A DNA stretch of 64,000 nucleotides from Bilabrum cf. latius (lineage: Eukaryota): positions 620,001 through 684,000 of the forward strand of contig OZ237761.1 of assembly GCA_965178125.1 (NCBI GenBank), written 5' to 3'. Numbering within the stretch: the first letter of the stretch is position 1; each line of letters starts with the position of its first letter. Shown here piece after piece: positions 1 to 22,792 of the stretch. Position numbers and translations under genes: made by a program. The notes beneath the pieces are model-generated. The model did no database searches, was not told the DNA's origin, and saw only the letters and a list, made by a program, of their open reading frames with translations.

Positions 1-510
1 TACATCTAATGATGGGTTCTCATCGTGTAATTCATCACTTGCTATACTCAACCTTAAACTCCATTCTTTGATATCTTCATCCTCTGGGCATTCGTGAATG
101 GTATAATGAAGATAATATTTCTTTGAATGATAATCGGTCAGGCTCTCAACTCTATATTTATCTTTTTCAATTATTTCGGCTTTATCGGTTAATTTAACAA
201 CCATAGATTTATGGCACCGCACAAATAAAGGTTTCATCCTCTAGACGGCTTTAAATGAACCATCTTTATATTCTAAACAAACCCTTTTAAAACTCTCTTT
301 TTTCCTACTTAGATAATAGACCTTTATATCGTCTTTCTCTCTAATCTCTATATCCATTTTTAAACCTGAAACAAGTTTATAAAGGTTCTTTGTAGTTATG
401 GGCTTACCGTTAAATACCTTTTCTAGATACTTTACGGATTGAATGGGGTTATCATACTTTTTACCAAAGCATATATTTAATTGATTTAACACATTTTCGT
501 AATTTATCAT
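1..510 (-). CDS. Virophage protein, N-terminal part; runs off the window
   Basis: ATG at 510. Frame stays open to position 1 when TAG at 241 is read through. Conserved upstream motif at 540-556. Product not recognisable. Confidence 0.6.
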
Positions 511-588
511 TTCCTATAGTATATTATATTTAATATATTTTTAAGCCATTTTAAACACATATTATAAAGTTTAAATTATAAAATGTAA

Positions 589-930
589 TTATTGTTTCGG
601 AGCAGTGAGGATTAATATAAATCTCTTCACTTGCTCATCACTTAAGAAGGTATAACGAGAAGAAGGACTGAATAGCATTACATCATCCTTTAGTTTAAAT
701 ACTGACGAAGTTCGCCAGCCTATGGGGTAGAGAGAACTAACATACGCATCATAATTTTTTAAATGGGGCTTTTGTTTTAATAATCTCTAGATATATTTTT
801 TTAATAAAGTCTTCATTTCTAAATCATTATATCCATCATCTGGACGAGGAGGAAACACAAAATTATATACGGGCTTATTGTTTTTAATAAGTTGAGTTCT
901 AACAATTTGAATATCACGTAATTTAACCAT
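589..930 (-). CDS. Virophage hypothetical protein (113 aa)
   Basis: ATG 930, one internal TAG, TAA 589. TCTA/TATATA upstream. Confidence 0.6.
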
Positions 931-1022
931 TTTTATATATATACTATAGATATTTTATTTTTAAGCCAAATAGACGCGTTTAAAATGACTTAAAGATTTT
1001 ATTTTATTATAATATATATAGA

Positions 1023-1568
1023 ATGTCAAAATTTGAGAGTTATGAACCGAGCGAATTAATGGAACTTTTAGAAGAAGGAGCCGTAAAGAAAGCCAAGAAA
1101 TATATTAATCAATTCTTCTTTAAAACTTTTAAAGGGATATTTTTTAATAATACCGTAGAAGATAAATTTGAACTAGTGGATGAAGACGAATTAAATGGTT
1201 TGTATCTAACCCCTGATATGAAGACCGACAGCGCCAAAAATCCATTTGTTCCATACATTTATATGTTTTCTAGTGAGCCCCCGATTTATTATACAGGAAA
1301 TTTTGAGAGTAAAGACCCCATAATGACAATTAAAAAGAAGGACAAACCCATCAAATATATTAATTTGTCATACGGTCAATTTATACCCGAGGAAGTAGAG
1401 GAACCAGAAGAAGAAGAAGAACCAATAAGACCCAAGAAAAAGACTAAGAAGAGGAATAAGAAGAAACAAAAACGTGATAATAATAGAAATGTTGATAAAC
1501 CAGATGATGAAGATGATGATGAAGAAACCTTTAGAGACCAACTAAACGAGGCATTAAAAGATTTCTAA
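1023..1568 (+). CDS. Virophage hypothetical protein with acidic/basic C-terminus (181 aa)
   Basis: Clean ATG-TAA ORF. Motif GTTTAAAATGACTTAAA ends 28 nt upstream. Confidence 0.75.
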   Translation: MSKFESYEPSELMELLEEGAVKKAKKYINQFFFKTFKGIFFNNTVEDKFELVDEDELNGLYLTPDMKTDSAKNPFVPYIYMFSSEPPIYYTGNFESKDPIMTIKKKDKPIKYINLSYGQFIPEEVEEPEEEEEPIRPKKKTKKRNKKKQKRDNNRNVDKPDDEDDDEETFRDQLNEALKDF

Positions 1569-1629
1569 ATAATTTAATATTTCTACTAATATTAAATATG
1601 ATATCTTTATTAAAAGTTGAACACCTTGA

Positions 1630-1825
1630 CCATCTAATAAAAGGGCTAGAATATTAAAATATATATGGTTATCTCTATATTAAAATCCATACGATGGCTA
1701 TATCCACAAATTGCGTATTAGTATATGTATTATTTAGCAAAACGTGGATGGATTAGCTTTATGAAGATGATTTGATTGATAACGTATTTCTAGCCCAAAA
1801 GTTCCATCACTTTAGAAGGTTGTAA
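1630..1825 (-). repeat. Dispersed ~190-bp non-coding virophage element, copy A
   Basis: Reverse complement matches 12620-12813 (e.g. ATACGCAATTTGTGGATATAGCCATCGTATGGATTTTA) and partly 22449-22585. Confidence 0.8.
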
Positions 1826-1890
1826 TATAGCCCCTTCTAACTCCCATCATCAATATGTTAAATATTAATTTTATCATTAATATCTAATTA

Positions 1891-1983
1891 TTATTTACCA
1901 ATATGACATTTATAACAAATTGAATATTTCATATCTTTAATTCTAGACACTCCGCATTTTTTACACGCCTTTTTTCCATTGAT
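1891..1983 (-). pseudogene. 3' fragment of the virophage multi-zinc-finger gene disrupted by Ngaro
   Basis: INGKKACKKCGVSRIKDMKYSICYKCHIGK-TAA. Joins in frame to 8629-9093 when the retrotransposon is removed. Confidence 0.85.
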
Positions 1984-2109
1984 GCCAGAGTGTACGCGCA
2001 ACCTAGTCTCGTTAACAATCAGACATGGCAAGACCTGACAAAGCTGTGCCTGTGCGCGACCCTTGACCGGACTGACCGGGGCTGGGAAGAGCACGTGCAC
2101 TACTCCGCC
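1981..2109 (-). repeat. Ngaro repeat B2
   Basis: 129 bp, identical by eye to 2313-2441. Confidence 0.95.
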
Positions 2110-2133
2110 GAGGAGGAGGGGGTTGGGAGGGTG

Positions 2134-2311
2134 GGCAAAAATTACCCAATCTCCGCCCCTCTCCTGAACACAGAGAGGGTATGCGCGTCATCGCAAGCAA
2201 TCCGTTGGCTTGGTCGCACCTTCCCGGTCGCAACCGCCATCGGAACCCAACGAGACGTTCACGCGCTCCCACTCTGGCATCAACACCGAACCCCATCCGG
2301 CGTTAGGATCA
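2134..2311 (-). repeat. Ngaro repeat A2
   Basis: 178 bp, identical by eye to 8453-8630. Confidence 0.95.
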
Positions 2312-2312
2312 T

Positions 2313-2441
2313 GATGCCAGAGTGTACGCGCAACCTAGTCTCGTTAACAATCAGACATGGCAAGACCTGACAAAGCTGTGCCTGTGCGCGACCCTTGACC
2401 GGACTGACCGGGGCTGGGAAGAGCACGTGCACTACTCCGCC
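2313..2441 (-). repeat. Ngaro repeat B1
   Basis: Direct copy of 1981-2109. Confidence 0.95.
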
Positions 2442-2481
2442 AAATCTTACCGCCATGTCTTGTACGCTGCGGCTGTGTGGC

Positions 2482-3819
2482 TCACTCCAAGTTCAGCCGC
2501 AGCGCGCTGGCCAGCACCCACACTGGCCTGTTCAAATCGAGGCTCCTGCCGCCGAGCTCCAGAGGAGGCAAGCCTTCCCTGACGCCCCGCAAGTACACCT
2601 CGCATGCAGATGCCGACTTCCATCTGCCAAATCGCCTAATGACCTCGAAGGCGACCCCAGCACGGTCCAAACACATCACTGCCGCGATGCGGATGGAATG
2701 TCCGTGCACCGCTCCTGCAACTTCTCGTGAGCAGAAGCTGCGGAGCGCCCGTACTACCTGCGCCTTGACGATCGGCTTCGTGTTCGCCACGAAGACTGGC
2801 CCTGACGTGGGGCAGCTGAGCGCCAGCTACCGGGCGTAGTCTTCGTCTGCGCCTGCAGTTGGGGCGTGGCTCGCTGCTGCCCACGCCACGAAGGCTCGCA
2901 CGCCGCAGAACCTGCTGCCTGTGACTGCCCATCGTCCGGCTCTGCAATGGACTGCGATGGGCTCTGCGGCTTGGATGGAGAACTTGGCTGGGCCGTCGGC
3001 TTTGTGGAGGCCCAGGCGGATGGCAACACCATGGATGCGTCCGTCTCGCGTGATGAACTGCACTTGCTGCCATTGGAGGCCGGCTTGTCGTCTGGACGCA
3101 CCGACGAGCTCTCCCAGCCGGAGGCCCCCACAGAAGCAGAGACAGACAGCTGCCCGAGCAGCCTACTCTGTTGTGCTGCAACCGGCTGTCGAGAAACACC
3201 GTCGGATTGCGCGGAGTGGGGCTGAAGATCGACGCAACGGGTGCGCCGATGGCGATGCTTTGTGGTAGTACCGGAGGATGCTGTCGAGCTAGCTTGACCG
3301 TGGGACGCCGCACGCTCCTGTGGACTCGATGACGACTCGCTAGGCATTTCTGGTGTATGTAGCGATGGTGCCGCCACTGAGAGGCGAACATTCCCCTAAG
3401 AAGACTGCGAATCTCGAGAGCGCTGCATTGAGCCTGAACGCGAAGAGTCTGCGAGCTGCTGGAAGATGCCCGTCCATGAAGCTGCGGTCGATGTCGTACC
3501 ACGTGAGGAAGTTGTCGAAGTGCCCCCACGCCGTGCGCAACCCACTGAGTCCAGAGTGGCCACCAGCGTGAAATGGTCGTGCTTGGACAAGGTGTTCCAG
3601 ATCGGCGTGGGACAGTTGACCGGATACACCGCGTCCAGGTGCGTGTATGCCTCCTGTGAGCCGCGGCTCAAAGCGTCCGCAACGACGTTGTCCTCGCCAG
3701 GAATGTGTTTCACGTGAATCTGCACATCTTGCGTTGTCTGCAGTACGAAGATAGGGCGAAGTAAGGCTGCCATGATGTGGCTCTTGGGTCTGCCGTAGCG
3801 TATCAGCTACACGGAAGCA
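2482..3819 (-). CDS. Tyrosine recombinase of Ngaro element (start uncertain)
   Basis: One frame open 3819-2482 with 4 TAG (3340, 3289, 3163, 2827). Motifs GGLRLGEL, HKAD, GHSIRIAA, GRWKS and EVY. Ends in TGA. Confidence 0.88.
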
Positions 3820-6800
3820 TCATTATCACACCACAAACGCACCACACGTCCACGCAGGTGCTGTCGCCAATGCGCCAGTGCCAACAAACATGTTGCAAGT
3901 TCTGCCGCCGCTACATCCTTCGCCTCTAGGCGATGCGGCCAAGTGCCCTGGATGCCGGTGTGCGAAGTGATGTTGCCGTCCTTGTCGTGGAGAAGCAGCT
4001 CGGCGCCGTAGCCTGTCACCGACGCATCAGTGCGAAGGATGGGACAGTCAATGGTGCCCCGCATCGGAAAACTGCGCCCGCCTTTGCGCTGGATAGCCAC
4101 CTGGAATCCCTCGAGGATTTCCCCAACTGTGAAGCCACCCTTGGACACAAAGGAGGTGGGGACCCACACCTCACCTGGTCGTGACCGGCTGGCCTACTTG
4201 TGAAGGGCCCAGCCCTTGGCGTCATACAGGGGACGTAGAGCACCGCGCATACCATAAAGTGCGCCCGACAGGAAGGACAACTTGCCGACCAAGGTCTCAA
4301 AGCTAGACAGCAGCATCCCCTTCGTCGTGAGTGCCTCGTGCAGTCTGCGCAGGACGTCGTTGGCCTTGTCCTTAGGGCACCGCACCTCGTGTTTGATCAA
4401 GTCGTAGGTGAGGCCCAAGTACTCGAATACCGGGGCTGGGGCCCCTTGCTTCAATGCTTTCGAGATGCTGACGGGGAAGTTTGTGGAGTCCAGCTGCCCC
4501 ATGGCTCGAATTGCCCATGCATCGACTTCGTGATCTCCGCCGAGGCAGGCAAAGTCATCTACAAACACCTCATTTTCGACCTACCAATGGCGGGACTAGT
4601 CTTGGGCCGTCTTGACATGTCCCGTTGTCGTGCTAGCGGCAGGCGGGGTGGACGTTGCTGACGAGTTCGCCTGGGGCGCCTGGTCCGTCGTGCTGGATTG
4701 GGCGTTGGCGTGCTGCTGCTTCCGGCGTCGTTGCTTCTGCTTGTGTCTCCGTCCGGGTCGCATGGCCCTGCCAATGGACTGTTCCTCGAGGGCTTGGGCC
4801 AAAGCCGAACTGATCGTAGTTGCGAATGCGGGAGATGATGAGCTGCCCATAGAGAGCCTGAAATCTTGCACGATGCGCCCGTCGGGCAGCTTGATCAGGT
4901 TGTATTGGAGATCCTCCACTGCCACCGGCAGGACCCGAAAGTACGAGGAAATGTCGACGACGTATCCGCTGGCACGCTTGGGGCAGGATCGAACTGCTGC
5001 GGCTGCCGAGCGCAGCACGTCCATGCTGCTCGTCTGCTGCACAGGCGTGGCTGCACTGTAGTCGATGGCCTTGTTCAGACCGGTACGCTGGCCGTTCACC
5101 TTGAGTGAGGAGTCCTGAAGGAACCGTAGCTTTGTCGAGTCCTTCTTGGGGATCACCAGCGGCCGGGCCCGGGCTGTGTCGAAATCTTTGGGTGACACGA
5201 AGTCACGCTCGCCAGCCCGCATGGAGCGCCCGATCTCGCAGGCGATCTCCCACTTTTCTTCCGGAGACAGCTTACGGTCCTTGTAGTCTAGATCGTGCTC
5301 TTTGGGCACCTCGTCCACGATGGCTAGGGGGCAACCATAGTTCAGTGCTGCCAGTACACGCTCGACTCGTGGGAGGGCTTTAAACTCGGCAAGGGACGGG
5401 GCCTTCCTCGGTGTGCGGCCGCCAAACAGAACCTCCCGCCGGGTCCGCAGTGTTGCAGTCTAGCGAGGCACCTTGTCGAAGTACTTGCGTGGCGTGAATG
5501 CCAGCGGGTCGTCGTGAACCTTCAGGTGGAGCCGCTCACGGTCCCACGTCGCAGCTGGAGCCTCCACGAATTCGCCGGGACATTCTCTGGTACGCTGGTG
5601 ATCGTCCTTTCGCTGTATGAAGTCCTCGACGGAGGGTGCTGTCGTCCCTGCCCACTCATGGCTTGGATCCGGAGCTGGATATGCCCAGTCAACGAATGCT
5701 GGAGAGATGTCCGTCCTACCTGGCAGCCTCGTGGATGACGCCGTGGGCGGCCGCTGCGGTCGCTTAGGGCGCGCTAGGGCCACCAGGACTGGGTGAAGCG
5801 CGGGCGTTGACGTGACAGGTGGTGTGGAAGCAGCACACGCGTCCGATGTGGTGGTAGTCTGCGTACGCCCCTGCGGCAGTGTTGGTGTTGGAGTGCTGGG
5901 CTGGCTCTGACGTGACGTACCTCGTGGGGGGGGGTCAGGTGAAGGCTCCTTGGACTTCCTGGTGGAGCCCCCGTCCTGCCGGTCCGCACGCTGGTGCTGG
6001 CCACCTTGCTGGCCTGCACCGCCACGTCCACGGCCTCGACGGTGTCGACCTCCGCCACGATCGGCACTGGGCTGGTCGCTGTCACCCCCGCTGTGCCTGG
6101 AGCCTCCACTGCCCCCGCCTCCACTGCCCCGGCCTCCACTGCCCCCGCGGGGGTCGAAGTGACGGGACAGTGCTGCTCGACGGGACGGCGCCTGCATGTC
6201 AGCCTGGACTCCCTGTAGCAGTCCGCGCACGAGGCCAGGTTCGCCTGATCTGCATGCCTCAGTGGCCCACGGATGCAGCAATTGTAGGAGACGCATGCAG
6301 TCGCCAGAAGAGCAAGATGGAATCTCATTCCCAACAAGGTCACGAATCTCAACGTCACAGCGTTCGCCTGTATGGCGCCAAGCATGGGATGAGAGCATCT
6401 CAAAAGCTGAACTTCCGCGTGGTATCACACACACAGCGGCAAACACCACCTCTAGTCTGGACGCCGATGCAGATGATGCCCCGGAAGCACTAACTAAACG
6501 AAGAAAATCATTGCGAACCTGCCCTAAGGTTTTCCAATCGGGCACTAGTGATGCTGGACACTACCACGAGCTGCTGCCCTGCGGCAACCAGGACGGCAAG
6601 GACGCCGTCGAATGCACGCAAGCAGCCCGCACAAGCACACAGCCTAAAGCAAAGGAAATAGCCGAGTAAATAGTGCATAGTAACTCGCTAGATGGTACCT
6701 ACTTGTCTCGTCCGCCTGCAGCAGACGACTCCGAGTTGGACGCATCAAACTTCCCAAAACTAGCATTGCTCATCGGCAGAGCTGCATGAAGCCGGCTCGT

Positions 6801-8435
6801 GAACGAGAAAATAGCCGATTCAATCTTGGCTCTCGTCACAGCCTGACCAAACAGGGCACGGGCCAGTTCGGCAGCGAAATCGCGGCCGCTAGCGTCCAAA
6901 TGAAGCGCGTCAGCCTAGCAAAACCGCGGCATGAACGCGGATTGGCGAAAGATCGAGGTCAACGTTGCCAAGAAATCATCAGAAAACCAATTCTGCATTC
7001 GAATTGCAGCGATTGAAGGTGCAGAGGCCTCACGCTACAAATTCTCCACTGGTTGCGAGCGACCGACCGCGGAGTCCACTGCCGTGCCTGCGCCCGGTGA
7101 AACTGGGTCAATTGAAGACGCAGGCTGCGGTGAGGCAGAAGATGAGACAGGAGGTTCACGGGGTGGCTGATGAGCGGGTAGAGCGTCGACCGGTGGCGGG
7201 GATGAGTGCATCGAAGCTGCCAGTCGGTGCTAGAAGTACCATTGTAATTCCACGTGGGCGGAGAGGTGCGACAGCAGCTCTTGCTGGCGCAGAGTCGGAA
7301 TGCTGTGCCACAGCGCAAACAGGCGTAGATGCAGAATTGTCGCTGGGTCGGCCTTTCCCCGCAGCGTCGTGGAGTGCAACACTGCCCGTTGGAGATCCCC
7401 AGGAAGGCGGCCCCAGACCGCATCAAGCTAGCGGCTGGTGCCCGGAGTCACGCCGGGGGAGTCATAAGCCGGAGACACACGAGGGAGAAGAAGCTGAGGG
7501 CCTGCCGGGCCCGTTGACCGTGATGCTGCACTGCTGAGCGCCTCCGCGAGCACTGTCGGATCGCCGAAGTCCCGAGTGCTTGGCCTACCGGGGAGCCTGC
7601 CCGAGGCAGGTGGAGGTTGGTGCCGCGGGGGTGAAGACGTTGAGAAGTTGGGCTGGCCGCTGCGCTGGGTAGCTGCTGCTGTCCCCGGGGGCCCTCGGTT
7701 CGGGGACTCGTGCAGGTGGGCCCGCCCGCCCCGCGCGAGCGGGGTCGGCCGCGTCGAAGAGCCTGGCCGCGCCCGCAAGGGCGAAATTCCGCGGCTTGTC
7801 CTGGTGGCACTCTACGCCGCTCGGTTGCGTCCAGGTGAAGCATGGATGGCGGCGCCGAAGTCGAGGTGTCCTGGTGGCCGATGCTGTCCGCGAAGAGAAG
7901 CTGTCCCCCGGCCCGTCGGTAGTGAACTCAGGGACCATGGAGACTCGATTGAAGAAGGAGCCTCTGGAGATTGCTGAGCATGATGAAGATGTACGTGTCC
8001 TGCGAGTCGCTCAGGCTGTTGCCGTCGAGGGGAGCTCGACGATGCCGGCAGAAGCAGCCGTGCACCGAGAGTCGTTAGCGTCCCATTTGACACGAACTTG
8101 GCGAGAGCGGTGCTCTTGACAGCATTAATGGACCGGGATGCCGTGAAGGACTGCTTTGATGAGTACCTGTCGAGCAAATAGCACAGGAACCCCGCATCGT
8201 GTGAACGTTGAAGATCAAGATCTCGAGGTGCCATGGTGTCGCGCTGCACGTTGAGACGAGCAATGAAATCCGAGAACACAGCATCATTCATACCATATCG
8301 AGTAGCTAAATCGGCCAACGTGACCGCAGGTTGGCCTACCGCGCGAGCGAACACTGCAGCTGCGGCGATCACCCTGTCGCTGCCAGATGCCCGGCGCGCC
8401 GCCGCTTCAATCCGATGGCTACCGGCGCTGTTCAT
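2676..8435 (-). CDS. Ngaro polyprotein: putative gag-like region + reverse transcriptase + RNase H (~1919 aa)
   Basis: ATG 8435 to TGA 2676 is open apart from 14 TAG. RT motifs KLRFLQD, VDISSYF, LSMGSSSSP, FVDDF and EYLGL. RNase H motifs TDAS, AELA, CDN and HIPGEDNVVADALSR. Confidence 0.8.
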
Positions 8436-12813: not shown

Positions 12814-12822
12814 TCGGAGTAT

Positions 12823-13406: not shown

Positions 13407-14477
13407 TCAATAGAGAAATATTTTTTTTGTGCTAACTACATAATTATTATCAACATTAATAGCAACATAACCAAAGAGAGGGAGAGAATGAAGGGTTTTT
13501 TTAATTCGTTTTCTAGTAGGAGCGTCAAAACTTAAGACTGTTTCTAAAATATATTTTAAACTTTTAGCTGTAATTGTTTTATAAATGATATGGGTTGTAA
13601 TTTCGTTCATAATGGTTCGTGTCTTCATACCGTCGCTTATTTTGTGGGTGATGTCTAAAACGCTACTTGCTGTGTGCCTTCCTGTAGTTGCTAGGATTTC
13701 CAATAAAAAATAAGCCTTTGCTTTCTGGTTCCTTTTTTTAAAGCCTTCGTAATCATCCAGAATAAATAAATTAGGTTCAGCGGTCAATTTTTTAAAAAAC
13801 TCAACATTTAATTTAAAACCTTTTTCTATTAAATCTTTCTCAGGTTTCAAATCCTCTATCTTTCTTTCAGCTTCAATAACAACATCTAAAGGTTTAGATT
13901 TCATCAAAGAAGATTTTTTATATTTAAATTCTAATTTCATTTTTTTATAATAAGCCATTTTTTCCTTATATAAAGTGTTTTCATTCTCTTTAACCAAATC
14001 ATCTATATCAATGAAGGTCGCGCCTTCTCTTTTATATTTAGGGTCTTGAATTGGTGATATAACATACATATTTTTATATTTTAATCCTCTATACATCCTT
14101 ATATAATGTAAAGCTAAATGACTTTTCCCGCTTCCACTCTTACCAAATAATCGCACATATTCACGCCCCTATGGAAAGAGCATAGGAAAAGGTAAATATT
14201 GACTATTATCTTTAATAGCAAATTCCTAAACTGACCGTATATATTCATCTTGTAATAATTTATGTAGTTGTTCCCTTTTCTTGTCCTTATCAACGTTATA
14301 TCTTACTCGGCTTTCTCCGTAATAAGATTTTAAAACATCATCTGTTATCTCTTCCGCTTTGACGTGTTGAATATCTTTAGCGTTCGGGTCGTAATAAATA
14401 AACCGGTTCTATTGTGTTTTTTTATATTTTTGAATAGCTACAATATGGCTATTTTCCGTATATTGTAAAGATAGCAT
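13407..14477 (-). CDS. FtsK/HerA-like (A32-type) DNA packaging ATPase (356 aa)
   Basis: Walker A GKSGSGKS, Walker B LFILDD, TGRH motif. N-terminal extension through 3 TAG to ATG 14477. Ends TGA. Confidence 0.92.
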
Positions 14478-14569
14478 TATATATAATAATAAAATAAGAT
14501 AAACCATTTATTCACACGGGTTTAAAATATTAAGTTGGTTCCTTCTTCTATCCTTCCTCACAAAAAAAG

Positions 14570-15385
14570 TTATAGAGACATAATTATATTTTTAATTTCC
14601 GCCCGTGTTTTCCTATTTATGTATTGGTCAATCCACGATATTATCTTATTAATATTTGCTTTAGAATACTTTGAAAATTGTTTTATTATTTCCACATTTC
14701 CTAATGCTTTTCTCATTAGTCCTTTTAGGCTTTGAAATGATTTTGACTTCTCGCTTTGATGTCCTTTTATTCTTAGCATACTTTCTAATCGCATTCTTAT
14801 GGAATATAAATATCCTAATGCTTCCCTATCAATTAAATCATTGACTCTTTTTTCATTCCTCTTCTCACCTCTTAATTTAAATAAATCCTTCAATCGTTTT
14901 AATACTTTAAAATTATTAGAACCAAAATATTTATCTACATCTCTTATTAATCCATCTTTTACCTCGTCCTAATCTATTTCATAATCACTTATATGATAAA
15001 TTATGCTTATTTCATCTATAAATTTTCCATCAAAAGCCCAAAAATCAATTTTTAAGTATGGTTTATCTCCGCTAAATATCTATTTATAAATGGTTTTAAC
15101 GGGTGTAGATATGAATGCTTTTATGGTCTTGTATTTTTTATTACCAGCTTTAACCTCAATAAAATTAACCTAACTTATAAAAACCTTTACAAATCTTATT
15201 AAACTATTTATAAATTCAGGCTCTACTCTCTAATATAAATCTATATCACTAGCAAACAAGGAATAATAAGGAATAGCATACGAACCATTTAAAAATAAAT
15301 TAGCCCCCTTCTTAAAATTCACCTCATCAATTATATCGTTCTCGTATTCATTAAAATAAGCTTGTGTCAATTCATTAATTTTCAT
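14570..15385 (-). CDS. Putative Pol-beta-superfamily nucleotidyltransferase-like protein (271 aa)
   Basis: NGSYAIPYYSLFASDIDL fits hGS-x(9-13)-DhD, with a later KID. 4 TAG, ends TAA. Confidence 0.6.
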
Positions 15386-15442: not shown

Positions 15443-15823
15443 ATGAGCGTTAAATAGAGCATAAATGATATGACAAATAAAAGCCTTCATCATCTTGGAA
15501 TAAACAGAAATGATTATAAAAAAGAAATTGATAAAATGGTTGAAGATACCGCAAACCAAATATTAAACGCAACCACAAAAGGAAAGACAAAAGGGGGAGC
15601 TTTGATTGCCGGCTCAGCTAATGTCCTTGCTGGTAGTGTTAATTATATTGGAGGAAAAAAGAAGGGTTCAAAGAAAGCCCCTAAAACAAAAAAGCCCCGT
15701 AGTGCTAAATAGTTAAAGAGGGATAAATTAATGAAATGGTGCCGTCAAAAGGGAATGACAATGAAAGCCAGCAATGCTTTTATAAAGAAACACGACCTTA
15801 TGAATAAGGATATTTCATTTTAA
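15443..15823 (+). CDS. Small basic, putative virion core/DNA-binding protein (126 aa)
   Basis: 2 TAG, ends TAA. TKGG and YIGG motifs followed by a Lys/Arg-rich tail. Confidence 0.65.
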
Positions 15824-15900: not shown

Positions 15901-17970
15901 ATGTCAAACAATACAATTAATGATTTACTGAAGGGTATTATGTAGAAACGGTCTAATCAACTTAGGATACAAAATGACCCACAAGTTAGATTAATGATAT
16001 AGCAAGAAGAAGATGAAGCAGAAGCCAGAAGAAAAACCCTAAAAGATGATGCTTTTCTTCGTGCTAATTATGTTCCTATTGATGTTAGAATTGAAAGACA
16101 ACAACAACAACAAGGAATTGAAAATATTATTAAAAATATTAAGACTATGAACGCTAAAAAAGAATTACCAATTTATCAAATAGAAAATTTACAATCATTT
16201 ATAAATAGAAATCCAGATTTACCGGATAAATTAAAAAGATAGGTTGTAGATACCATTAATAATATTAATGTAAGGTAGGTAGTAGGACCAGCAAGCGATA
16301 AGAAAAAGGTATTTGATGGAATTAAAAATATTAATATGAGATTATTCACAACCACCAAAGCACAACGGGACGCAGTATTAGAACAATTACCAAGCGATAT
16401 GAGAGGATTAAAAGCAGTTCAAATACGAAACGCTTTACGACAAGCTGGAATCACGAAAACCCCCCAAGGATAGAATGTTTCACAATTAACAAAAGTTGAT
16501 GACGCTGTTAATGCTTTATAGGATGTTTTAAATCCTCCTGAAGCCGTTCAACAATAGCAAAGAGATGACCCGCAACCTGATAGACCTGAACCAGATAACC
16601 CGCAACCGCCACCAGAACCAAGACCAAAACCCCCTCCAACACCACAAGAAGCATTAAGCCCAGAACTACAAGAACAAATTGAAGCACTTGAAAGAGTAGC
16701 AAACGCCAATCCTTCAAGTAGTAGAAAAGCACCAAAGAAAACCGAACTAGCATCAATACTTAGATAGTCAAATGTTAAAGGTGTAAAAGGACGGTCTAAA
16801 GTTGATTTTATAAAAAGTGCTTAGAAGAAATTATCAGAACTTAAACAAAAAGCACAAGAACAAGAGGCATCACAATCATCAGGACAAGAAGAAGAAGGGG
16901 AGAACGCCAGTAGAAATTTATCAGGCTAGTTTTCAAAAGTATCACCCGCACCAGTTCCACCTAGTGGATTCTTACAAGCATCACCAGCACCACAAGGACA
17001 ATCACCAGAACAAGAACAAGGACAATCACCAGAACAACAACAAAGCACATTTGGTTCTTTAGGACAATCGGTTATGGATGGTATCAGTTATTTAACAGGA
17101 AAAACAGGCTCACAACCACAAGCACCCCCCGCAGGTCAAGACAGAGGAAAAGGTGAAGCGATGGCAGTAGATGAAGATGGAGAACCTATTACAGATGAAT
17201 TTGGAAGACAACTTACAGAAGTTCAATTCAGACAAAGACAAGCACAGGCAGAACGAGATGAAGCACAAAGACAACAAGAAGAAAAAGAAAGACAAGCTAG
17301 AGAACGGAGGGGAGCCCCAGATGAAGAACCAAGAGATGGAGAAGCCGTAGAACAAGCACAACCAGCAGAACCAGCAGAACCACAAGAACCAGAAGAACCA
17401 CAGAAAACAGATGATGAAATAGCCAAATCAATAGGACAATCAATAAATGTAAAAACAGGTTCAACTAAGGAATAGATATTATCACAATTACAAAAAGCTG
17501 GAATAAATCCAGTAGAATCAAAAACCGCAACTACATTAAAATATATTGTACGAAGGCTTAAAGCCGGAGTATTACAACCTAATCTACCACCTGAGAGAAT
17601 CGCTGATTTAGTAGCCAGAGCAAATACAGAAGGAAGAGATACAAGAGCAGTTAGTAGACAAGCAAAAAGTATTCTTACTGATAACGGTTATCAAATGGAT
17701 GGAATACCTATATGGACATATTCACCACCAGCTCAAGGTTTCGGAAATAAAGACCCTTATAATATGTTAATGAAAGCTATTAATTTAATTATTGATTAGA
17801 AAATAAAAACATAGAACAGGGGCGGTAGTTGTGGATGTGGCAAGCATAAAGGAGGACAAATTGAACAAGAATATTTTAATGTAGCCGGTGGTAAAGGTAA
17901 TCATAATGTGAAGGACAAGGTAAAACAAATCTTATATCAACACTTTGAAAAACTAAGATTATTAAAATAA
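15901..17970 (+). CDS. Large Gln/Glu/Pro-rich virophage protein (689 aa)
   Basis: Open apart from 13 TAG, including CAA-CAA-TAG-CAA. Ends TAA. C-terminal NRGG, HKGG and VAGG motifs. Confidence 0.8.
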
Positions 17971-18015: not shown

Positions 18016-18633
18016 ATGGCAGAGTTAGTAGCAACAGCAAGCACGGTTGGTGGGGTGTTGGTTCCTCTAGGATATGCGGGATGCTTCCTTTGGAACTTAT
18101 GTTCCTCACTTGCGAATCGTAAAAAATTGTGTTTAGTCCTTCCACGAAAAGGAGGTAAAAGTTCACTTAACAAAAGTTTAACGTCTATAGACCCGAATAT
18201 TCTATTAGTTGATTTAGATGAAGTCCTTAAAGTTAATGCTGACACCAAACAGGTCGTACATTTGAATGACGCCGAAGCTAGGGGCGACGTATCAACAGCC
18301 AAACTTTTAAAATTTGAGCTTATGAAAAAAAGCATTGAGAAAGTTAAATCAAATTGGTTATAGAAAGCAGAACATAGAGCCGTCTTTCTTACTTCAGATT
18401 TTGACCTAGCAAAAGAAATATTCAAGCCCTCCAGCGTGTGTGTAGCAATACCAAGCGATAAACTATACAGCAATATCTCTAAAGATTTAGACGAGAAGGA
18501 TAAAGCAGTAGCTAGACATTCACGAGCTGAATTTTTGAAGAGCTTTAACCCTAATGAATATAGCGTATATAATACCTTTGAAGGGCTTTCATAGATGGTG
18601 ATGAATGTCTATGGTCTTACATATAGGGTCTAA
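18016..18633 (+). CDS. P-loop NTPase/kinase-like protein with hydrophobic N-terminus (205 aa)
   Basis: LCLVLPRKGGKSSL...LLVDLDE. 2 TAG, ends TAA. Confidence 0.6.
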
Positions 18634-18669: not shown

Positions 18670-19827
18670 TTATTTAGTCTTATTATTAAAATTATCCTTT
18701 AGGGTTTTTGATATATTTTTAGCCGGCTCCGTTGTTATCTTCCATTGAATTAAATATTCATCTTGTCCCTCTTTATTCTTTCTTCTCTTTATTATTTTAC
18801 CTATATCATTCTAATATTTTCTTTTAGTAGCCTCATCAACATATGAATCTTTCCATTTAACCCTGTATGTATTATTTTTATTCTTTCTTATCAATTTTTC
18901 AATTATAAATATATCTTGTGCTTTATTCTCGTATGGTTTAGATGCTAATAACAACTAATCTCTATTAAAGTATGTATAGGGTATGCCCTCAATTTTATAT
19001 AATGGGGGGTTATCTGGTTTTATTATTACTCTTTCAATTTTATAAGGCTTTACGCTATATTTAATATCTCCCGCCCTAAATGCTCCGGTTTCCTTTATCC
19101 CTTCTATACTTCTAGGATAATCTAATCCTATTCTTACCATTTCGCCCTCATTTAATACATCACATACTTCACCCTAACATCTAGGCGGTATATATGGTAG
19201 ATTCTCCCTTTTCTTATTCAACATTTCCTATCTTGTTTTATAACGCTCGTTTAATATCTCCCTCAACTTTGGTATTAAATGTCTCCAGTTCGTAATAGTT
19301 GTCCCCGTTCTTATCTCCTATGAATTCAAATAATAAAATATAGCTCTCCCTATTTCCTCATTCAATCTCTCCACCAAAGCCATCTACGATTTACGCTTCA
19401 CTCTTGAAAATATATGCTCTATCTTATTCTTCTTTAGATATTCTTTAAATGATTCATTATCAAATTCTCCCCCTTTATCTGTTCGTATCATTTTAGGTTT
19501 CATTAAATAATTTCTTTTATAGATTTTTTGAAAAGCTTTTATCACATCCTCCGCCCCTCTATCCTTTAACTCTTCAAAATCTAACGCTAATCCGCTAGTA
19601 TCTATCACAACTAATAAATATTTTGAATCGTTCTTGGTAGCGTAAGGGAGATACAATAAATCAGCCTATTGGATAAGCCCCTCTTTAGTAGGTTTATAAT
19701 ATTTAACATAATTCAATCCTTTCGGTTTCTTTATCGGCTTCATTAAATCGTTCGTGATAGACTTCGTATTAAATCCAAAACTTGATTCATTAATATCATT
19801 ATCTTTTTTCTTTCCTCTCTTACTCAT
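18670..19827 (-). CDS. Retroviral-type (rve) integrase with C-terminal chromodomain(s) (385 aa)
   Basis: Q[TAG]ADLLYL, YLLVVID, IRTDKGGEF, [TAG]MALVERLN, then YRVKWK and EYLIQWK..EP. 7 TAG, ends TAA. Confidence 0.93.
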
Positions 19828-19867: not shown

Positions 19868-20239
19868 TCACGAATTAAAAAGCCTATTAATAGCTTCATT
19901 CGTTTTAATGTGCTCCTTGGTGTCTCTTATCTCCTAATGGATATCAACCAGCTTTAATTTTTCTTTCTTAGTGAGTCCGTTCATCCTTCCTTTTAATGCT
20001 TTTAAAGTTTTCATATAAGGGGCTATAGCTTCTGCTTTCTTTTTGCTCACCTCTTTATATTCCACATTAAGAGCGGTTAATTTACTATTCACTTTATTTT
20101 TTAATTCTGTCTCTTTTATTTTTAGTTGCTTTAACTTTTGTTCTAATTCACGATTGGTCTTCTTAAAGTCTTCTACAATATCAAGAAATTCATTCTTTAA
20201 CTTTGAGCGGGTATTAATCACTTTTTGTAATTTATCCAT
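19868..20239 (-). CDS. Coiled-coil hypothetical protein (123 aa)
   Basis: ORF extends through TAG 19934 to TGA 19868. Confidence 0.65.
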
Positions 20240-20340
20240 TTATATATAATTACTAGATATTTTTTTTATTTTTTTTAAACTATAGAATTTTATAAAACGG
20301 GTTTAATAAATTAAAATAAAATATTGGGCTACATTATAAT

Positions 20341-20757
20341 ATGTTCGTTAAGTTCCTGTTATCAAGTGTCAACGTTAAAAAGGTATTCCAGAATAAAAGC
20401 ATCTCCACTTTTATGTCAATCGTATATATTTATGTTGAGAAGCACAAACCATCAATGTTAAAGCATTTTCAACTTGATGACCTTCGTGTCCCTCCAGATT
20501 GTAATGAACGACTTAAAAAAAGAGTATTAAGTGAATTTGAAGAAATTGATTATATATCATATTTCGTTCAACCATTTAGAATAATACACAAGCTAAATGA
20601 AGAAAATGTTGAATGCCTAAGTGAAGACTTAAATGATACCGTAGCCATAGATTTATTGGTTAAAAAAGAGAAGGAAGCCATTGAGAAATCAATAAAGAAA
20701 TAGAAGGATGACATCATCAAAAAGGCTATAGATGACTTTATCTTACCCAAGGATTAA
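20341..20757 (+). CDS. Virophage hypothetical protein (138 aa)
   Basis: Extends through TAG 20701 to TAA 20755. Confidence 0.6.
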
Positions 20758-20804
20758 ACTATATATTAATAATAATAATAATAGTATTATTAAAATTCAA
20801 AAAT

Positions 20805-21152
20805 TTATTCTAAAAACTCAATATCAAACCATTCATTTGAATCATCATATTCTTCAGCATACATCAACGATAATTCTATATACTCTTCTAATTCACTATT
20901 AGTAAGGTTATCAATTTCTTCTTCTTTCAATAGTTTGAAATCGGTTCCGTTGTCATCATTAAAACTTTCAACTTGACCTTCTGCTTCCTTTTTATATTCT
21001 TCTTTCCAATTATCACTCCATACAACTCTCTTCGCTTGGTCTTTTAAAGTGTCAGTATAAAGCTTTTGTGCTTCTTCCTTATTATTAAACTTTTTAACCC
21101 AGTGTGTATGATAACATTCACTACCCCACGCTAATGATACAATATAAACCAT
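20805..21152 (-). CDS. Acidic hypothetical protein (115 aa)
   Basis: Clean ATG-TAA ORF. Confidence 0.7.
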   Translation of the reverse strand: MVYIVSLAWGSECYHTHWVKKFNNKEEAQKLYTDTLKDQAKRVVWSDNWKEEYKKEAEGQVESFNDDNGTDFKLLKEEEIDNLTNSELEEYIELSLMYAEEYDDSNEWFDIEFLE

Positions 21153-21193
21153 ATCTATAATAATTAAAAGTAAAATAATTATTATAATAAAAC

Positions 21194-22294
21194 TTAATTA
21201 AAATTATCCTCTATCTCTTCTCGCTCCTCGTTATCCAATACCCATTCTAATCTTGGAGGGTGCCACGCTCTAGCTATTAACTCCTCTTTATACTTCTTGG
21301 TTTGTTCTATTGTTTTATCTTTTCTTTTTTTATAATATGGTATCAGTGTTGTGGAATAATCAATTCTAATATCATTAATTCCATTTTCTAGATGGTTAAG
21401 CGAGGTACAATCGTAAAATATATAATAATCCATATCATCAACATTACTTAAATCCCAATTGTTCAATGGTTGATTGAATGATTTACAATTACTAAACATT
21501 TCACCCATACTGTTAACTTTAGAAACATTCCAATTATTCAGTGGTTGATTAAACTTTACACATTCTCTAAACATACCATACATATTGTTCACATTTGAAA
21601 CATTCCAATTATTCAGTGGCTAATTGAATGATTCACAGTTATGAAATAAAACACTCATATTTTTCACATATGAAACGTCCCAATCGTTCAGGGGTTGATT
21701 AAATGAATCACAATCAAAAAATAAACCTTCCATATCAAAAACACTAGACACATCCCAATCAGTCAATGGTTGATTAAATAGTTTACAGTATCTAAACATA
21801 AAATTATTTTTTTTTACATTTGAAACGTTCCAATTATTCAGTGGTTGATTGAATGATTTACAATATTCAAACATCCCAGACATACCCCAAACATTTGAAA
21901 CATTCCAAGTATTAAGTGGTTGATTAAATAGTTTACAATATTTAAACATACCACTCATAGTCTCAACATTTGAAACATCCCAATTATTAAGTGATTGATT
22001 AAATGACTTACACCCAAGGAACATAAAAGCCATATTTTCTACGTTTGAAACATCCCAAGTATTTAAAGGTTCATTAAATTTTTTCTTATATCTAAATAAA
22101 GCACTCATATCTGTAATAAATGTTGTTACTATTTCACAAGGCTTCTTATCTTTTAATAAATCTTTTAAATGGTCTTTACACCTTGCTATGTAATAGGTTT
22201 GACCTTCAAAATAGACGTTCCAGTTTATCCTTCTATAATAATCTTTCGGTTGTGTAGCTTTCAAGGTTCCATTTTCCCATTTTAATAATTCCAT
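21194..22294 (-). CDS. DUF285/BspA-like repeat protein (366 aa)
   Basis: Tandem 25-aa repeats FNQPLNNWNVSNVxxMxxMF. A single TAG (21620) sits at the repeat Gln. Ends TAA. Confidence 0.9.
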
Positions 22295-22322
22295 TCTGTA
22301 TATACCTATAATAAATATATTT

Positions 22323-22339
22323 TTTAAGTCAATTTAAAC
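22323..22339 (-). promoter_or_regulatory. Virophage promoter-like motif GTTTAAA(A/T)TG(A/G)CTTAAA; also at 540-556, 978-994, 9123-9139 and 9553-9569
   Basis: Five near-identical copies, each ending 28-29 nt before an ATG in gene orientation. Confidence 0.8.
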
Positions 22340-22792
22340 GCTCTATAACAATTTAAAAATAAAAGCGCGTTTGTTCCATTTGTGAAGGTATAAGCGAGGA
22401 TAAGGGGGTATAATGAAGGTAGTTTAGAAGGTTGAATAATGGAGTCCCATAAAGTGATGGAACTTTTGGCTAGAAAATGGCTAGAGTCCCATAACACCTT
22501 CACAAGAGGGCTACATCCACGTTTTGATTAGAACTTACTATAATATATACCCAAAGTATGGATATGGTCATCGTATAGAGTTTTATATATAATTGATTTT
22601 ATATAATTAGAAGGATAAAGCAGTTATATGAAGTAGCAGTATGAAGAGGATCACCTTGACTTTTGGAGCGACTAGCTCCAAAAGGAGTGGAACGGACTGA
22701 AGAGCTTTAGCTCTGATGGACTGGAACTATTGATGATGTTAATCATCCTTAACCGAAGGGAATAAATTTATTTATTACCGTAGCGGGGGGGG
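22340..22792. repeat. Probable right terminal (TIR) region of the virophage, containing copy C of the dispersed element (22449-22585)
   Basis: Non-coding AT-rich end before the host junction. The partner repeat is not in the window. Confidence 0.5.

What the first reader, a model, noticed from the sequence alone, without database searches (positions are those of the whole stretch)
1..22792. An endogenous virophage recoded to the host's UAG=Gln code
Seen: MCP (10 TAG), penton (5), protease (6), ATPase (3), integrase (7) and a 689-aa protein (13) become full-length with no internal TAA/TGA, despite AT-rich DNA. TAG sits at the protease oxyanion-hole Gln (PI[TAG]SYANNSATCG), the integrase [TAG]ADL and the DUF285 repeat FN[TAG]PLNNW (other units FNQPLNNW). 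Standard ORF calling shreds this element. Inference: long co-evolution with a recoded host. The code could restrict host range, and it implies a helper giant virus that must also cope with UAG=Gln.
Basis: partly seen in the sequence, partly recalled or inferred. Interest (0 to 1): 0.92.

Follow-up and report, generated by a model that had tools for sequence, protein, structure and literature searches.

The report
Integrated virophage reading TAG as glutamine
A small virus of the kind that parasitises giant viruses sits inside the chromosome of a GC-rich single-celled eukaryote, and both write glutamine with the stop codon TAG, which gives a host for the TAG-recoded giant viruses known so far only from metagenomes.

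Summary
Read with TAG as a sense codon, the AT-rich DNA at 1-1979 and 8631-22792 gives 18 open reading frames. They include a mavirus-type major capsid protein, a penton, an adenain-fold protease, a packaging ATPase, an rve integrase and a DUF285 repeat protein. They hold 64 in-frame TAG and no in-frame TAA or TGA.

TAG means glutamine. Three integrase TAGs fall on the most conserved glutamine columns, which standard-code relatives write as CAA or CAG. One TAG replaces CAA in a 9-unit repeat.

The flanking host genes (DNA polymerase alpha, tuberin-like, myotubularin, a kinase) also carry in-frame TAG, never TAA, and all end in TGA.

Codon usage looks equilibrated under this code. One distant metagenomic virophage contig (L001) also has in-frame TAG; 11 other related contigs do not.

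Three caveats apply:
- The element runs off the window start, and no polymerase or helicase was seen.
- A 6.65-kb DIRS-like host retrotransposon (1980-8630) splits one of its genes.
- Dependence on a giant virus is inferred, not shown.

A precedent exists: endogenous viruses of Streblomastix use their host's TAA/TAG=Gln code. I rate this a new variant of a known kind, of good interest.

The parts
1..1979 (-). Left part of the virophage element (29% GC), cut by the window start. It holds ORFs 1-510(-, open at the window edge), 589-930(-) and 1023-1568(+), one copy of the ~200-nt repeat (1617-1840), and the 3' end of the split Cys-rich ORF (1891-1979, -).
   Evidence: GC 0.29. ORFs. It carries the same 17-mer promoter-like motif as the right part. 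Removing 1980-8630 in silico restores one 183-aa frame across the junction.
1980..8630 (-). DIRS-like host retrotransposon inserted into the virophage; not part of the virophage. It has an RT/RNase H ORF at 2676-8615(-) with 14 TAG and a tyrosine-recombinase ORF at 2482-3540(-) with 4 TAG. Both end in TGA.
   Evidence: GC 0.61. Repeats 2134-2311 = 8453-8630 and 1980-2109 = 2312-2441 are 100% identical. Pfam RVT_3 at 8.1e-6 and Phage_integrase at 7.4e-5, below cut-off. Codons.
8631..9093 (-). 5' part of a Cys-rich (CxxC repeats) 183-aa virophage ORF split by the retrotransposon.
9234..9524 (-). 96-aa ORF of no known family (2 TAG).
9572..11461 (-). Major capsid protein, 629 aa, 10 TAG.
   Evidence: PDB 6g45 at E 4.6e-8 over residues 92-620. 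55 library proteins at E<=0.001. Pfam MCP_V20_C at 17.2 bits, below cut-off.
11533..12486 (-). Penton (minor capsid) protein, 317 aa, 5 TAG.
   Evidence: PDB 6g41 at E 6.5e-24. Pfam V18-19 at 29.2 bits, cut-off 27.
12626..12826 (+). Second copy of the ~200-nt non-coding repeat. The other copies are at 1617-1840 (inverted) and 22424-22609.
   Evidence: No convincing conserved fold. No Rfam or tRNA match.
12823..13398 (-). Cysteine protease of the adenain/Ulp1 (CE clan) fold, 191 aa, 6 TAG. His73, Asp90, Gln140 (TAG) and Cys149 are invariant in the 3-sequence alignment.
   Evidence: Alignment A5. Model pLDDT 76.8. Foldseek best hits are the adenovirus protease 1nln at E 1.9e-4, then SENP/Ulp1.
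13407..14507 (-). Packaging ATPase, 366 aa, 3 TAG, with Walker A GKSGSGKS.
   Evidence: PHROG 2666, terminase large subunit, at 1.1e-6. The L001 homologue sits next to its protease, E 1e-46.
14570..15385 (-). 271-aa ORF of no known family, 4 TAG.
15443..15823 (+). 126-aa basic ORF, 2 TAG.
15901..17970 (+). 689-aa low-complexity Gln/Glu/Pro-rich ORF, 13 TAG.
18016..18633 (+). 205-aa ORF, 2 TAG. It is the best conserved gene shared with L001 (44% identity). Function unknown.
18670..19827 (-). rve-type integrase with a weak C-terminal chromodomain match, 385 aa, 7 TAG.
   Evidence: Pfam rve at 8.8e-12 and Chromo at 6.5e-5, below cut-off. 16 homologues.
19868..21152 (.). Three small ORFs of no known family: 19868-20239(-), 20341-20757(+), 20805-21152(-).
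21194..22294 (-). DUF285 repeat protein, 366 aa, nine 25-residue units, 1 TAG at the repeat's Gln.
   Evidence: Pfam DUF285 at 2e-128. Repeat table.
22295..22792 (.). Non-coding right end of the element, with the third repeat copy (22424-22609). The junction with host DNA is at about 22792.
   Evidence: The sequence turns GC-rich at 22793. In run X3 a 17-kb host contig of depth 40.7 starts at 22763, while the summed depth on the element is about 700-900.
540..556 (-). One of five copies of the 17-mer GTTTAAAATGACTTAAA, 25-45 nt upstream of ORF starts. The others are at 978-994(+), 9123-9139(-), 9553-9569(-) and 22323-22339(-). Promoter-like.
   Evidence: 5 matches with up to 3 mismatches against 0.07 expected; 0 of 100 shuffles reached 5. 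Positions relative to ATG.

Best explanation
This is one integrated copy of a mavirus-type virophage (a provirophage) in the nuclear genome of a GC-rich, intron-poor eukaryote that reads UAG as glutamine and keeps UAA and UGA as stops.

Shown here:
- The element encodes the virophage morphogenesis set (double-jelly-roll MCP, penton, adenain-fold protease, packaging ATPase) and an rve integrase.
- Its genes are open only if TAG is read as a sense codon.
- TAG stands for Gln.
- The neighbouring host genes and a host retrotransposon use TAG in the same way.
- Gln codon usage in both element and host follows each one's own base composition. This is what long residence under the code predicts.
- At least one distant free or metagenomic relative also carries in-frame TAG.

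Inferred, not shown:
- The integrase put the element into the chromosome.
- Its genes are silent until a giant virus infects the cell, whose transcription machinery then recognises the short AT-rich promoter-like motifs in front of the ORFs.
- Host ribosomes with a tRNA-Gln that reads UAG translate the messages.
- Particles then form at the expense of the giant virus.
- Any virus that multiplies in this host, the helper included, must be free of TAG stops. A TAG-rich virophage could not express its capsid in a standard-code host, so the code acts as a two-way barrier.

This particular copy has one gene split by a DIRS-like retrotransposon, and it is incomplete in the window.
For: Virophage genes:
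- Penton: PDB 6g41 at E 6.5e-24 and Pfam Sputnik V18-19 at 29.2 bits against a cut-off of 27.
- MCP: PDB 6g45 at E 4.6e-8 over the full length, and 55 library hits.
- Protease: model best matches the adenovirus protease 1nln and SENP/Ulp1.
- ATPase: PHROG terminase at 1.1e-6.
- Integrase: Pfam rve at 8.8e-12.
- The IMG/VR virophage contig L001 has the same penton, MCP, protease and ATPase genes plus a protein-primed PolB.

TAG is a sense codon. There are 62 in-frame TAG and 0 TAA or TGA in 15 ORFs. The longest frame is 693 codons against 253 under the standard code, and the shuffle maximum is 205.

TAG means Gln:
- Integrase TAG54, TAG148 and TAG291 lie in columns with Gln in 12, 11 and 13 of 13 distant homologues. 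Only 4 columns of the whole alignment are that Gln-rich, and 3 of them are TAG in the element.
- At DNA level these sites are CAA or CAG in 8 of 9, 8 of 10 and 6 of 7 aligned standard-code loci.
- In the DUF285 repeat, TAG stands where 7 of the 9 units have CAA.
- BLOSUM log-likelihood over the integrase sites is Gln 5.04 against Glu 1.69 as the next best.

Host code. The 8 host ORFs (11,197 codons) hold 69 in-frame TAG and 0 in-frame TAA, and all end in TGA. With the two retrotransposon ORFs added (10 ORFs), TAA occurs 82 times in the two off-frames and never in frame.

Codon equilibrium:
- Host TAG/CAG is 0.22, against TTG/CTG 0.28.
- Element (TAG+CAG)/CAA is 0.50, against AAG/AAA 0.39 and GAG/GAA 0.35.

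Selection between copies. Of the 9 listed differences between copies in MCP, ATPase and the 271- and 126-aa ORFs, 8 are synonymous. One is TAG to GAG.

Integration:
- The host junction lies at about 22792.
- The host-type retrotransposon has 100% identical repeats, and removing it restores a 183-aa ORF.

Relatives with TAG:
- L001 has 5 TAG and 0 TAA or TGA inside its alignments to the element's proteins.
- A 70%-identical protease fragment from another assembly ends exactly before the element's TAG99.
Against: - No DNA polymerase, primase or helicase and no terminal inverted repeats were found in the window. The element runs off position 1, so its completeness is unknown.
- No tRNA gene lies in the window, so the decoding tRNA was not seen.
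- Dependence on a giant virus is not shown.
- The TCTA late-promoter motif that I recall from mavirus/CroV precedes only 4 of 18 ORFs.
- At the 31 capsid, protease, ATPase and 205-aa ORF sites, Gln (0.40) beats Ser (-1.07) only narrowly. The case for Gln rests on the integrase, protease and DUF285 sites.
- No run on record as RNA holds the element. That blank is not evidence either way.
- Contigs of the public runs do not bridge the host junction by 31 nt on both sides. Integration therefore rests on the window itself, on the contig that starts at the junction, and on the retrotransposon insertion.
- That 6g45 and 6g41 are the mavirus capsid proteins is my recollection. The tool gives only 'major/minor capsid protein'.
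Confidence: 0.85

Rival explanations
1. It is a polinton-like or Maverick-type integrating virus with virophage-like capsid genes. It replicates on its own or as a transposon and needs no giant virus.
For: No giant-virus dependence was shown. An rve integrase with a chromodomain is shared with Mavericks/Polintons. The related contig L001 has a protein-primed PolB. The summed depth on the element is about 18 times that of the neighbouring host contig, as expected of an expanding mobile element.
Against: The penton passes the Pfam cut-off of the Sputnik V18/19 family. The only solved structures hit by MCP and penton are 6g45 and 6g41, which I recall to be mavirus. Short AT-rich promoter-like motifs sit directly upstream of ORFs, as is usual for virophage genes expressed by a giant virus's transcription machinery (recalled).
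Confidence: 0.1
2. TAG is a sense codon but stands for another amino acid (Ser, Glu, Leu or Tyr), as in other UAG-only codes.
For: UAG=Ser (Scotinosphaera) and UAG=Leu (a rhizarian) exist (PMC11687900, passages). At the 31 capsid and other variable sites Ser scores close to Gln. Single TAG sites face Glu in relatives.
Against: Three TAGs lie on near-invariant Gln columns of the integrase, written CAA or CAG in standard-code loci. The DUF285 repeat gives the same answer. Log-likelihood is Gln 5.04 against Glu 1.69 and Ser -0.27 at the integrase sites. Host TAG/CAG tracks TTG/CTG.
Confidence: 0.03
3. It is a dead, decaying viral fossil, and the TAGs are nonsense mutations.
For: One gene is split by a retrotransposon. 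No replication genes were seen.
Against: There are 62 TAG against 0 TAA or TGA in AT-rich frames. Host housekeeping genes carry TAG too. Differences between copies in core genes are synonymous in 8 of 9 cases. Coding density is 0.92.
Confidence: 0.01
4. The virophage is free (virion or episome DNA in the culture), and its junction with host DNA is an assembly chimera.
For: Summed depth on the element is about 700-900 against 40.7 on the host flank in X3. No public contig bridges the junction by 31 nt on each side.
Against: A host-type, GC-rich, TAG-using retrotransposon is inserted precisely within a virophage ORF. That requires residence in the nucleus. The host contig begins 30 nt inside the element's end, as expected at a repeat boundary in a de Bruijn graph. 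The element has an integrase.
Confidence: 0.05

Closest known systems
Mavirus and the endogenous mavirus-like elements (EMALEs) of Cafeteria (gene content and biology recalled; PDB 6g45/6g41 hits)
   Same: MCP, penton, cysteine protease, packaging ATPase in the same order, an rve integrase, integration into the host chromosome, AT-rich DNA in a GC-rich host, many related copies.
   Different: It is written in a UAG=Gln code. MCP identity is only distant (E 4.6e-8). No PolB or helicase was seen in the window. The host is probably a freshwater organism: a lake-water metagenome run (X8) holds ~88%-identical contigs. The TCTA motif precedes only 4 of 18 ORFs, and a different 17-mer is present.
Endogenous polinton-like/Maverick-type viruses of Streblomastix strix that use the host's TAA/TAG=Gln code (Bellas et al. 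2023, PMC10120064; passages read)
   Same: Integrated small DNA viruses that share the host's non-standard stop-codon code, read there as a sign of long virus-host association.
   Different: There both TAA and TAG are Gln (code 6), the host is an oxymonad, and the MCPs fall in a 'Metamonada' polinton-like group. Here only TAG is reassigned, the capsid genes are of virophage type, and a metagenomic relative shares the trait.
UAG-only = Gln nuclear codes: Iotanema spirale, Protocruzia tuzeti, some phyllopharyngean ciliates (PMC11687900, passages; PMC5304391, listing and start of abstract only)
   Same: UAG is Gln while UAA stays a stop.
   Different: The host here has 62% GC and long intron-free genes, unlike what I recall of ciliate genomes. 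Its identity is unknown to me, so I cannot say whether its code is already described.
Giant-virus MAGs better annotated with alternative codes (GVMAGs V2, PMC13524828; GVClass, PMC11721457; passages read)
   Same: Large DNA viruses of eukaryotes with single stop-codon reassignments, including code 15, and no known host.
   Different: Those are giant viruses known from metagenomes alone. The word 'virophage' does not occur in PMC13524828. Here the recoded virus is a virophage physically joined to its host's genes.
Code-15 (TAG=Gln) bacteriophages (PMC9523058, listing and start of abstract only)
   Same: TAG is read as Gln in a virus.
   Different: The phage code differs from that of the host (start of the PMC9523058 abstract). 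That it is confined to some genes and supported by phage tRNAs is recalled. Here the code is the host's own, TAG occurs in 17 of 18 ORFs, and no tRNA is encoded.

Membership tests
Virophages (Maveriviricetes, mavirus type) | Double-jelly-roll major capsid protein related to virophage MCPs | tested here: met
   PDB 6g45 at E 4.6e-8, residues 92-620. 55 library proteins at E<=0.001, 31 at <=1e-10. Pfam MCP_V20_C only 17.2 bits, below the cut-off of 27.
Virophages (Maveriviricetes, mavirus type) | Penton (minor capsid) protein | tested here: met
   PDB 6g41 at E 6.5e-24. Pfam V18-19 at 29.2 bits against a cut-off of 27.
Virophages (Maveriviricetes, mavirus type) | Adenain-like cysteine protease | tested here: met
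   The model (pLDDT 76.8) best matches the adenovirus protease 1nln at E 1.9e-4, then SENP/Ulp1. His, Asp, Gln and Cys are conserved with L001.
Virophages (Maveriviricetes, mavirus type) | FtsK/HerA-type packaging ATPase | tested here: met
   PHROG 2666 at 1.1e-6. Walker A motif present. The L001 orthologue lies next to its protease. No Pfam hit.
Virophages (Maveriviricetes, mavirus type) | Own replication module (protein-primed PolB or primase-helicase) | tested here: inconclusive
   None among the 18 ORFs in the window. The element runs off the window start. The relative L001 has DNA_pol_B_2 at 1.3e-8.
Virophages (Maveriviricetes, mavirus type) | Replication depends on a co-infecting giant virus | not testable with these tools
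   The only hints are promoter-like motifs upstream of ORFs.
Integrated provirophage (EMALE-like) | rve integrase and physical junction with host chromosome | tested here: met
   Pfam rve at 8.8e-12. Junction at about 22792 next to host ORFs. Retrotransposon insertion. Public contigs do not bridge the junction.
Integrated provirophage (EMALE-like) | Terminal inverted repeats and target-site duplication | tested here: inconclusive
   The left end lies outside the window. The ~200-nt repeats found are internal, not terminal.
UAG=Gln, UAA/UGA=stop genetic code (NCBI table 15 type) | In-frame TAG in conserved genes, aligned with Gln in standard-code homologues | tested here: met
UAG=Gln, UAA/UGA=stop genetic code (NCBI table 15 type) | TAA and TGA never in frame; genes end in TAA or TGA, never TAG | tested here: met
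   Element: 0 internal TAA or TGA; stops TAA 11 and TGA 4. Host genes and retrotransposon ORFs together: 0 in-frame TAA, 10 of 10 stops TGA.
UAG=Gln, UAA/UGA=stop genetic code (NCBI table 15 type) | tRNA-Gln with CUA anticodon and an altered eRF1 in the host | not testable with these tools
   No tRNA in the window. No whole genome is held.

The most novel reading that the evidence does not exclude
Host, virophage and a still unseen helper giant virus form a closed three-partner system written in a UAG=Gln code. On this reading, the TAG=Gln giant-virus genomes that metagenomic catalogues and earlier windows of this scan report without a host infect this eukaryote's lineage. The TAG-using virophages (this element and L001) are their parasites, and the code fences the whole virus community off from standard-code hosts.
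Probability: 0.4. Interest if true: 0.85.

Novelty: new variant of a known kind. Interest (0 to 1): 0.66.

Why it matters
- Annotation. Standard gene callers shred this element, and pipelines that assume the standard code will read such elements as decayed. The same TAG in-frame pattern in an IMG/VR contig shows that public virus catalogues contain recoded virophages.
- A host for recoded giant viruses. The catalogue paper PMC13524828 says all isolated giant viruses come from standard-code hosts, while some metagenomic genomes fit alternative codes (passages). A cultured or sequenced eukaryote whose genome holds many virophage copies written in UAG=Gln is the natural place to look for such a giant virus.
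- A test of the code as a barrier to virus host range. Integrated virophages in other protists are thought to defend the host population against giant viruses (recalled), so the reactivation experiment is clear and feasible.
- The host itself. A GC-rich, intron-poor eukaryote with UAG=Gln only and TGA at all 8 host gene ends seen (plus both ORFs of the inserted retrotransposon) may be a further independent case of a rare code.

Tried and rejected
- Close relatives of the MCP were sought by word index and by peptide patterns in viral contigs, metagenome contigs and genome contigs. All found nothing. Only a looser alignment gave L001. One search failed because the alignment was too diverse.
- The 'phages' collection holds no match to the penton.
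- The MCP TAG columns are too variable to name the amino acid.
- PDB alignments of the integrase and of DNA polymerase alpha (TAG faces Lys in the human enzyme) were not decisive.
- P0006, P0061 and P0063 are 85-99% identical proteins with Gln at the TAG sites. I did not use them as evidence, because their gene caller may itself have read TAG as Gln.
- No tRNA or Rfam family lies in the window.
- The ~200-nt repeat gave no convincing conserved fold.
- The TCTA motif precedes only 4 of 18 ORFs.
- No RNA holder is listed among the sequencing runs.
- Parts of the laid stretch have no cover in some runs, for example the host flank in X5. These are not interpreted.
- The whole genome is not held.
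- The host's lineage could not be placed with the tools at hand.
- Literature searches for a recoded virophage found no such report: 'virophage'+'UAG'+'glutamine' gave 1 paper, not relevant by its title; 'endogenous virophage'+'alternative genetic code' gave 1; 'virophage'+'recoded'+'TAG' gave 4; 'mavirus'+'genetic code' gave 11. Supplements were not seen and could hold such cases.

Full report
**Layout of the window.** It has two kinds of DNA. Positions 1-2000 and about 8600-22800 have 28-41% GC. Most of the rest has about 55-67% GC. The finding covers the AT-rich part plus a GC-rich block at 1980-8630.

**Check of the observation.** With TAG read as a sense codon, the AT-rich DNA resolves into tightly packed ORFs.
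- In 15 ORFs there are 62 TAG, 8 CAG and 132 CAA and no internal TAA or TGA. The stops are TAA (11) and TGA (4).
- The longest open frame in 8631-22760 is 693 codons with TAG as sense. It is 253 under the standard code, 253 with TAA as sense and 259 with TGA as sense. 100 dinucleotide shuffles gave a mean of 140 and a maximum of 205. Coding density is 0.92.
- Under table 11 only 7 ORFs of 120 aa or more remain in 8.6-22.8 kb, the longest 249 aa.

**What the genes are.**
- Penton: matches PDB 6g41 at E 6.5e-24 and the Pfam family of the Sputnik V18/19 minor capsid protein above its cut-off (29.2 against 27 bits).
- MCP: matches PDB 6g45 over nearly its whole length at E 4.6e-8. A full HMMER pass over 1.84 billion representatives found 55 proteins at E<=0.001, most of them about 550-620 aa. 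I recall 6g45 and 6g41 as the mavirus capsid proteins; the tool names only the molecules.
- Protease: the model (pLDDT 76.8) best matches the adenovirus protease and then the SENP/Ulp1 proteases. His73, Asp90, Gln140 and Cys149 are conserved with a distant relative.
- ATPase: has a Walker A motif and a weak PHROG terminase match.
- Integrase: matches Pfam rve at 8.8e-12 and has a sub-threshold chromodomain.
- DUF285 protein: a clear DUF285 repeat protein at 2e-128.
- Gene order on the minus strand is ATPase, protease, penton, MCP. I recall this as the mavirus order.
- No polymerase, primase or helicase was found. The element runs off the window at position 1.

**A host retrotransposon splits the element.**
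- Positions 1980-8630 are GC-rich and bounded by two pairs of 100% identical repeats.
- The block encodes a 1979-aa RT/RNase H ORF and a 352-aa tyrosine-recombinase-like ORF. That is the make-up of a DIRS-like element.
- Removing exactly 1980-8630 in silico joins 8631-9093 and 1891-1979 into one 183-aa Cys-rich ORF.
- So 1-1979 belongs to the same virophage, the insertion is recent, and this copy has one broken gene.
- The same 17-mer, GTTTAAAATGACTTAAA, lies 25-45 nt upstream of five ORFs on both sides of the insertion. There are 5 matches against 0.07 expected.

**Which amino acid TAG stands for.** Other UAG-only codes use Ser or Leu (PMC11687900, passages), so I tested this.
- Capsid sites are too variable. 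Over 31 sites Gln scores 0.40, Ser -1.07 and Leu -19.
- The integrase is decisive. In an alignment with 13 distant homologues (29-39% identity), TAG54, TAG148 and TAG291 fall in columns with Gln in 12, 11 and 13 of 13. The whole alignment has only four columns that Gln-rich, and three of them are TAG in the element.
- To avoid circularity (a gene caller may have read TAG as Gln) I fetched DNA. In 11 IMG/VR loci with related integrases and no in-frame stops, these sites are CAA or CAG in 8 of 9, 8 of 10 and 6 of 7 aligned loci.
- Protease TAG140, nine residues before the catalytic Cys, faces CAA Gln in 2 of 4 loci, and in a third with a one-residue gap. TAG99 faces CAG or CAA in 2 of 4.
- In the DUF285 protein the single TAG sits where 7 of the 9 units have CAA.
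- Between copies, one TAG differs to GAG.

TAG = Gln is well supported.

**The host's code.**
- The GC-rich flank holds long intron-free ORFs: DNA polymerase alpha (1692 aa, Pfam 2.2e-119), a tuberin-like protein (3079 aa), a myotubularin-related phosphatase (2240 aa), a protein kinase and others.
- In 11,197 host codons there are 69 in-frame TAG and no in-frame TAA.
- Across the 8 host ORFs and the 2 retrotransposon ORFs, TAA occurs 82 times in the two off-frames and never in frame.
- All 8 host ORFs and both retrotransposon ORFs end in TGA.

The host therefore uses TAG as sense and not TAA. The virophage's own use of TAA as a stop (11 of 15 ORFs) agrees with that.

**How long the element has lived under this code.**
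- If TAG and CAG are synonyms, their ratio should follow the first-position T/C bias seen in Leu codons.
- Host: TAG/CAG is 0.22, against TTG/CTG 0.28 and TTA/CTA 0.36.
- Element: TAG/CAG is 8.0, against 3.6 and 4.0. The G-ending to A-ending Gln ratio, (TAG+CAG)/CAA, is 0.50, close to AAG/AAA 0.39 and GAG/GAA 0.35.
- Both genomes thus look equilibrated, each to its own base composition.
- L001 is an IMG/VR virophage contig with only 28% MCP identity and a protein-primed PolB. It has 5 TAG and no TAA or TGA inside its matches to the element's MCP, penton and ATPase, and none of its 13 ORFs ends in TAG.
- The other 11 related loci show no in-frame TAG. TAG use is therefore a trait of a subset, not of all relatives.

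**Copies elsewhere.**
- Six public runs under two coded organism labels hold 93-96% of the sampled words of the 4.9-kb core.
- In run X3 the summed contig depth over the element is about 700-900, against 40.7 for a 17-kb host contig that begins at 22763. This is the pattern of a repeat boundary at about 22792.
- Laid contigs range from over 99% to under 90% identity, so there is a family of related copies. Depth sums all contigs and is not a copy number.
- Of the 25 best-supported differences listed that fall in the element's ORFs, the 9 in MCP, ATPase and the 271- and 126-aa ORFs include 8 synonymous ones. 929 further differences were not shown.
- A lake-water metagenome run holds contigs about 88% identical.

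**How it most likely works.**
- Shown: gene content, code, junction with host DNA, and multiple diverged copies.
- Inferred from what is known of mavirus and its endogenous relatives (recalled): integrase-mediated insertion, silence until a giant virus supplies transcription from the short upstream motifs, translation by host ribosomes that read UAG as Gln, and assembly at the helper's expense.
- Any virus that grows in this host cannot use TAG as a stop.
- The capsid gene, with 10 TAGs, could not be made in a standard-code cell.

**Comparison with what is known.**
- Bellas et al. 2023 report that endogenous viruses of Streblomastix strix use the host's TAA/TAG=Gln table and read this as long association (PMC10120064, passages). 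The principle is therefore in print.
- UAG-only=Gln is known in Iotanema, Protocruzia and some phyllopharyngean ciliates.
- A 2026 catalogue finds giant-virus MAGs that annotate better with alternative codes, including code 15, and states that all isolates come from standard-code hosts. It does not mention virophages (PMC13524828, passages).
- Two earlier notes of this scan describe soil giant viruses that read TAG as Gln. I did not check them.
- My searches found no report of a TAG-recoded virophage. Supplements were closed.

**Verdict.** It is a new variant of a known kind: a virophage-type provirus in a UAG-only code, joined to its host's genes, with a metagenomic relative sharing the trait. 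The helper virus, the host's identity, the element's completeness and its activity remain open.

Noticed in passing
window 1980-8630: DIRS-like retrotransposon (RT/RNase H ORF of 1979 aa, tyrosine recombinase-like ORF of 352 aa, two pairs of 100% identical repeats). It is inserted without visible target duplication into a virophage ORF. It uses in-frame TAG (14 and 4), and both ORFs end in TGA. Summed depth at its repeat is about 4450 in run X3, so it is highly repeated.
   Followed up: partly
window 540-556, 978-994, 9123-9139, 9553-9569, 22323-22339: A 17-mer, GTTTAAAATGACTTAAA, lies 25-45 nt upstream of five ORF starts (5 matches against 0.07 expected). Its AAAATGA/AAATTGA core recalls the early promoter motif of mimivirus-like giant viruses (recalled, not tested). 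Nearly all ORFs are also preceded by ATATATA directly before the ATG.
   Followed up: partly
window 1617-1840 (inverted), 12626-12826, 22424-22609: A ~200-nt non-coding module is present three times in the element (73-85% identity), one copy between the penton and protease genes. It has no tRNA or Rfam match and no convincing conserved fold. Its role is unknown.
   Followed up: partly
window 23402-62036 (host ORFs): All 8 long host ORFs end in TGA, and TAA never occurs in frame. TAA may be a rarely used stop in this GC-rich genome. Two ORFs (23402-27667 and 53767-55167) have an unusually high TAG share and lower GC3.
   Followed up: partly
L001 (IMG/VR contig, 12,928 nt held): A metagenomic virophage contig (penton, MCP, protease, ATPase, protein-primed PolB) whose MCP, penton, ATPase and a 592-aa ORF need TAG read-through. 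It has 10 in-frame TAG in 13 ORFs, and no ORF ends in TAG. It is probably mis-annotated under the standard code.
   Followed up: yes
protein P0062 (121 aa, from another assembly): A 70%-identical protease fragment ends exactly before the element's TAG99. Its N-terminus carries the C-terminal motif of a cis-prenyltransferase (precomputed PF01255), read in frame with the protease. This suggests a different upstream neighbour in that relative.
   Followed up: no
window 22801-23217: A host ORF begins 9 nt after the virophage end with a sequence that looks like the middle of a protein. The insertion may have cut a host gene.
   Followed up: no
runs X3, X5, X7: Near-identical virophage contigs occur in runs filed under three different coded organism labels. 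In X5 the adjacent host flank has no cover. This could mean different insertion sites, mixed cultures or carry-over.
   Followed up: no
window 18016-18633 and L001 7765-8391: The 205-aa ORF is the best conserved protein between the two TAG-using virophages (44% identity, against 28-32% for the capsid genes). It has no family assignment.
   Followed up: partly
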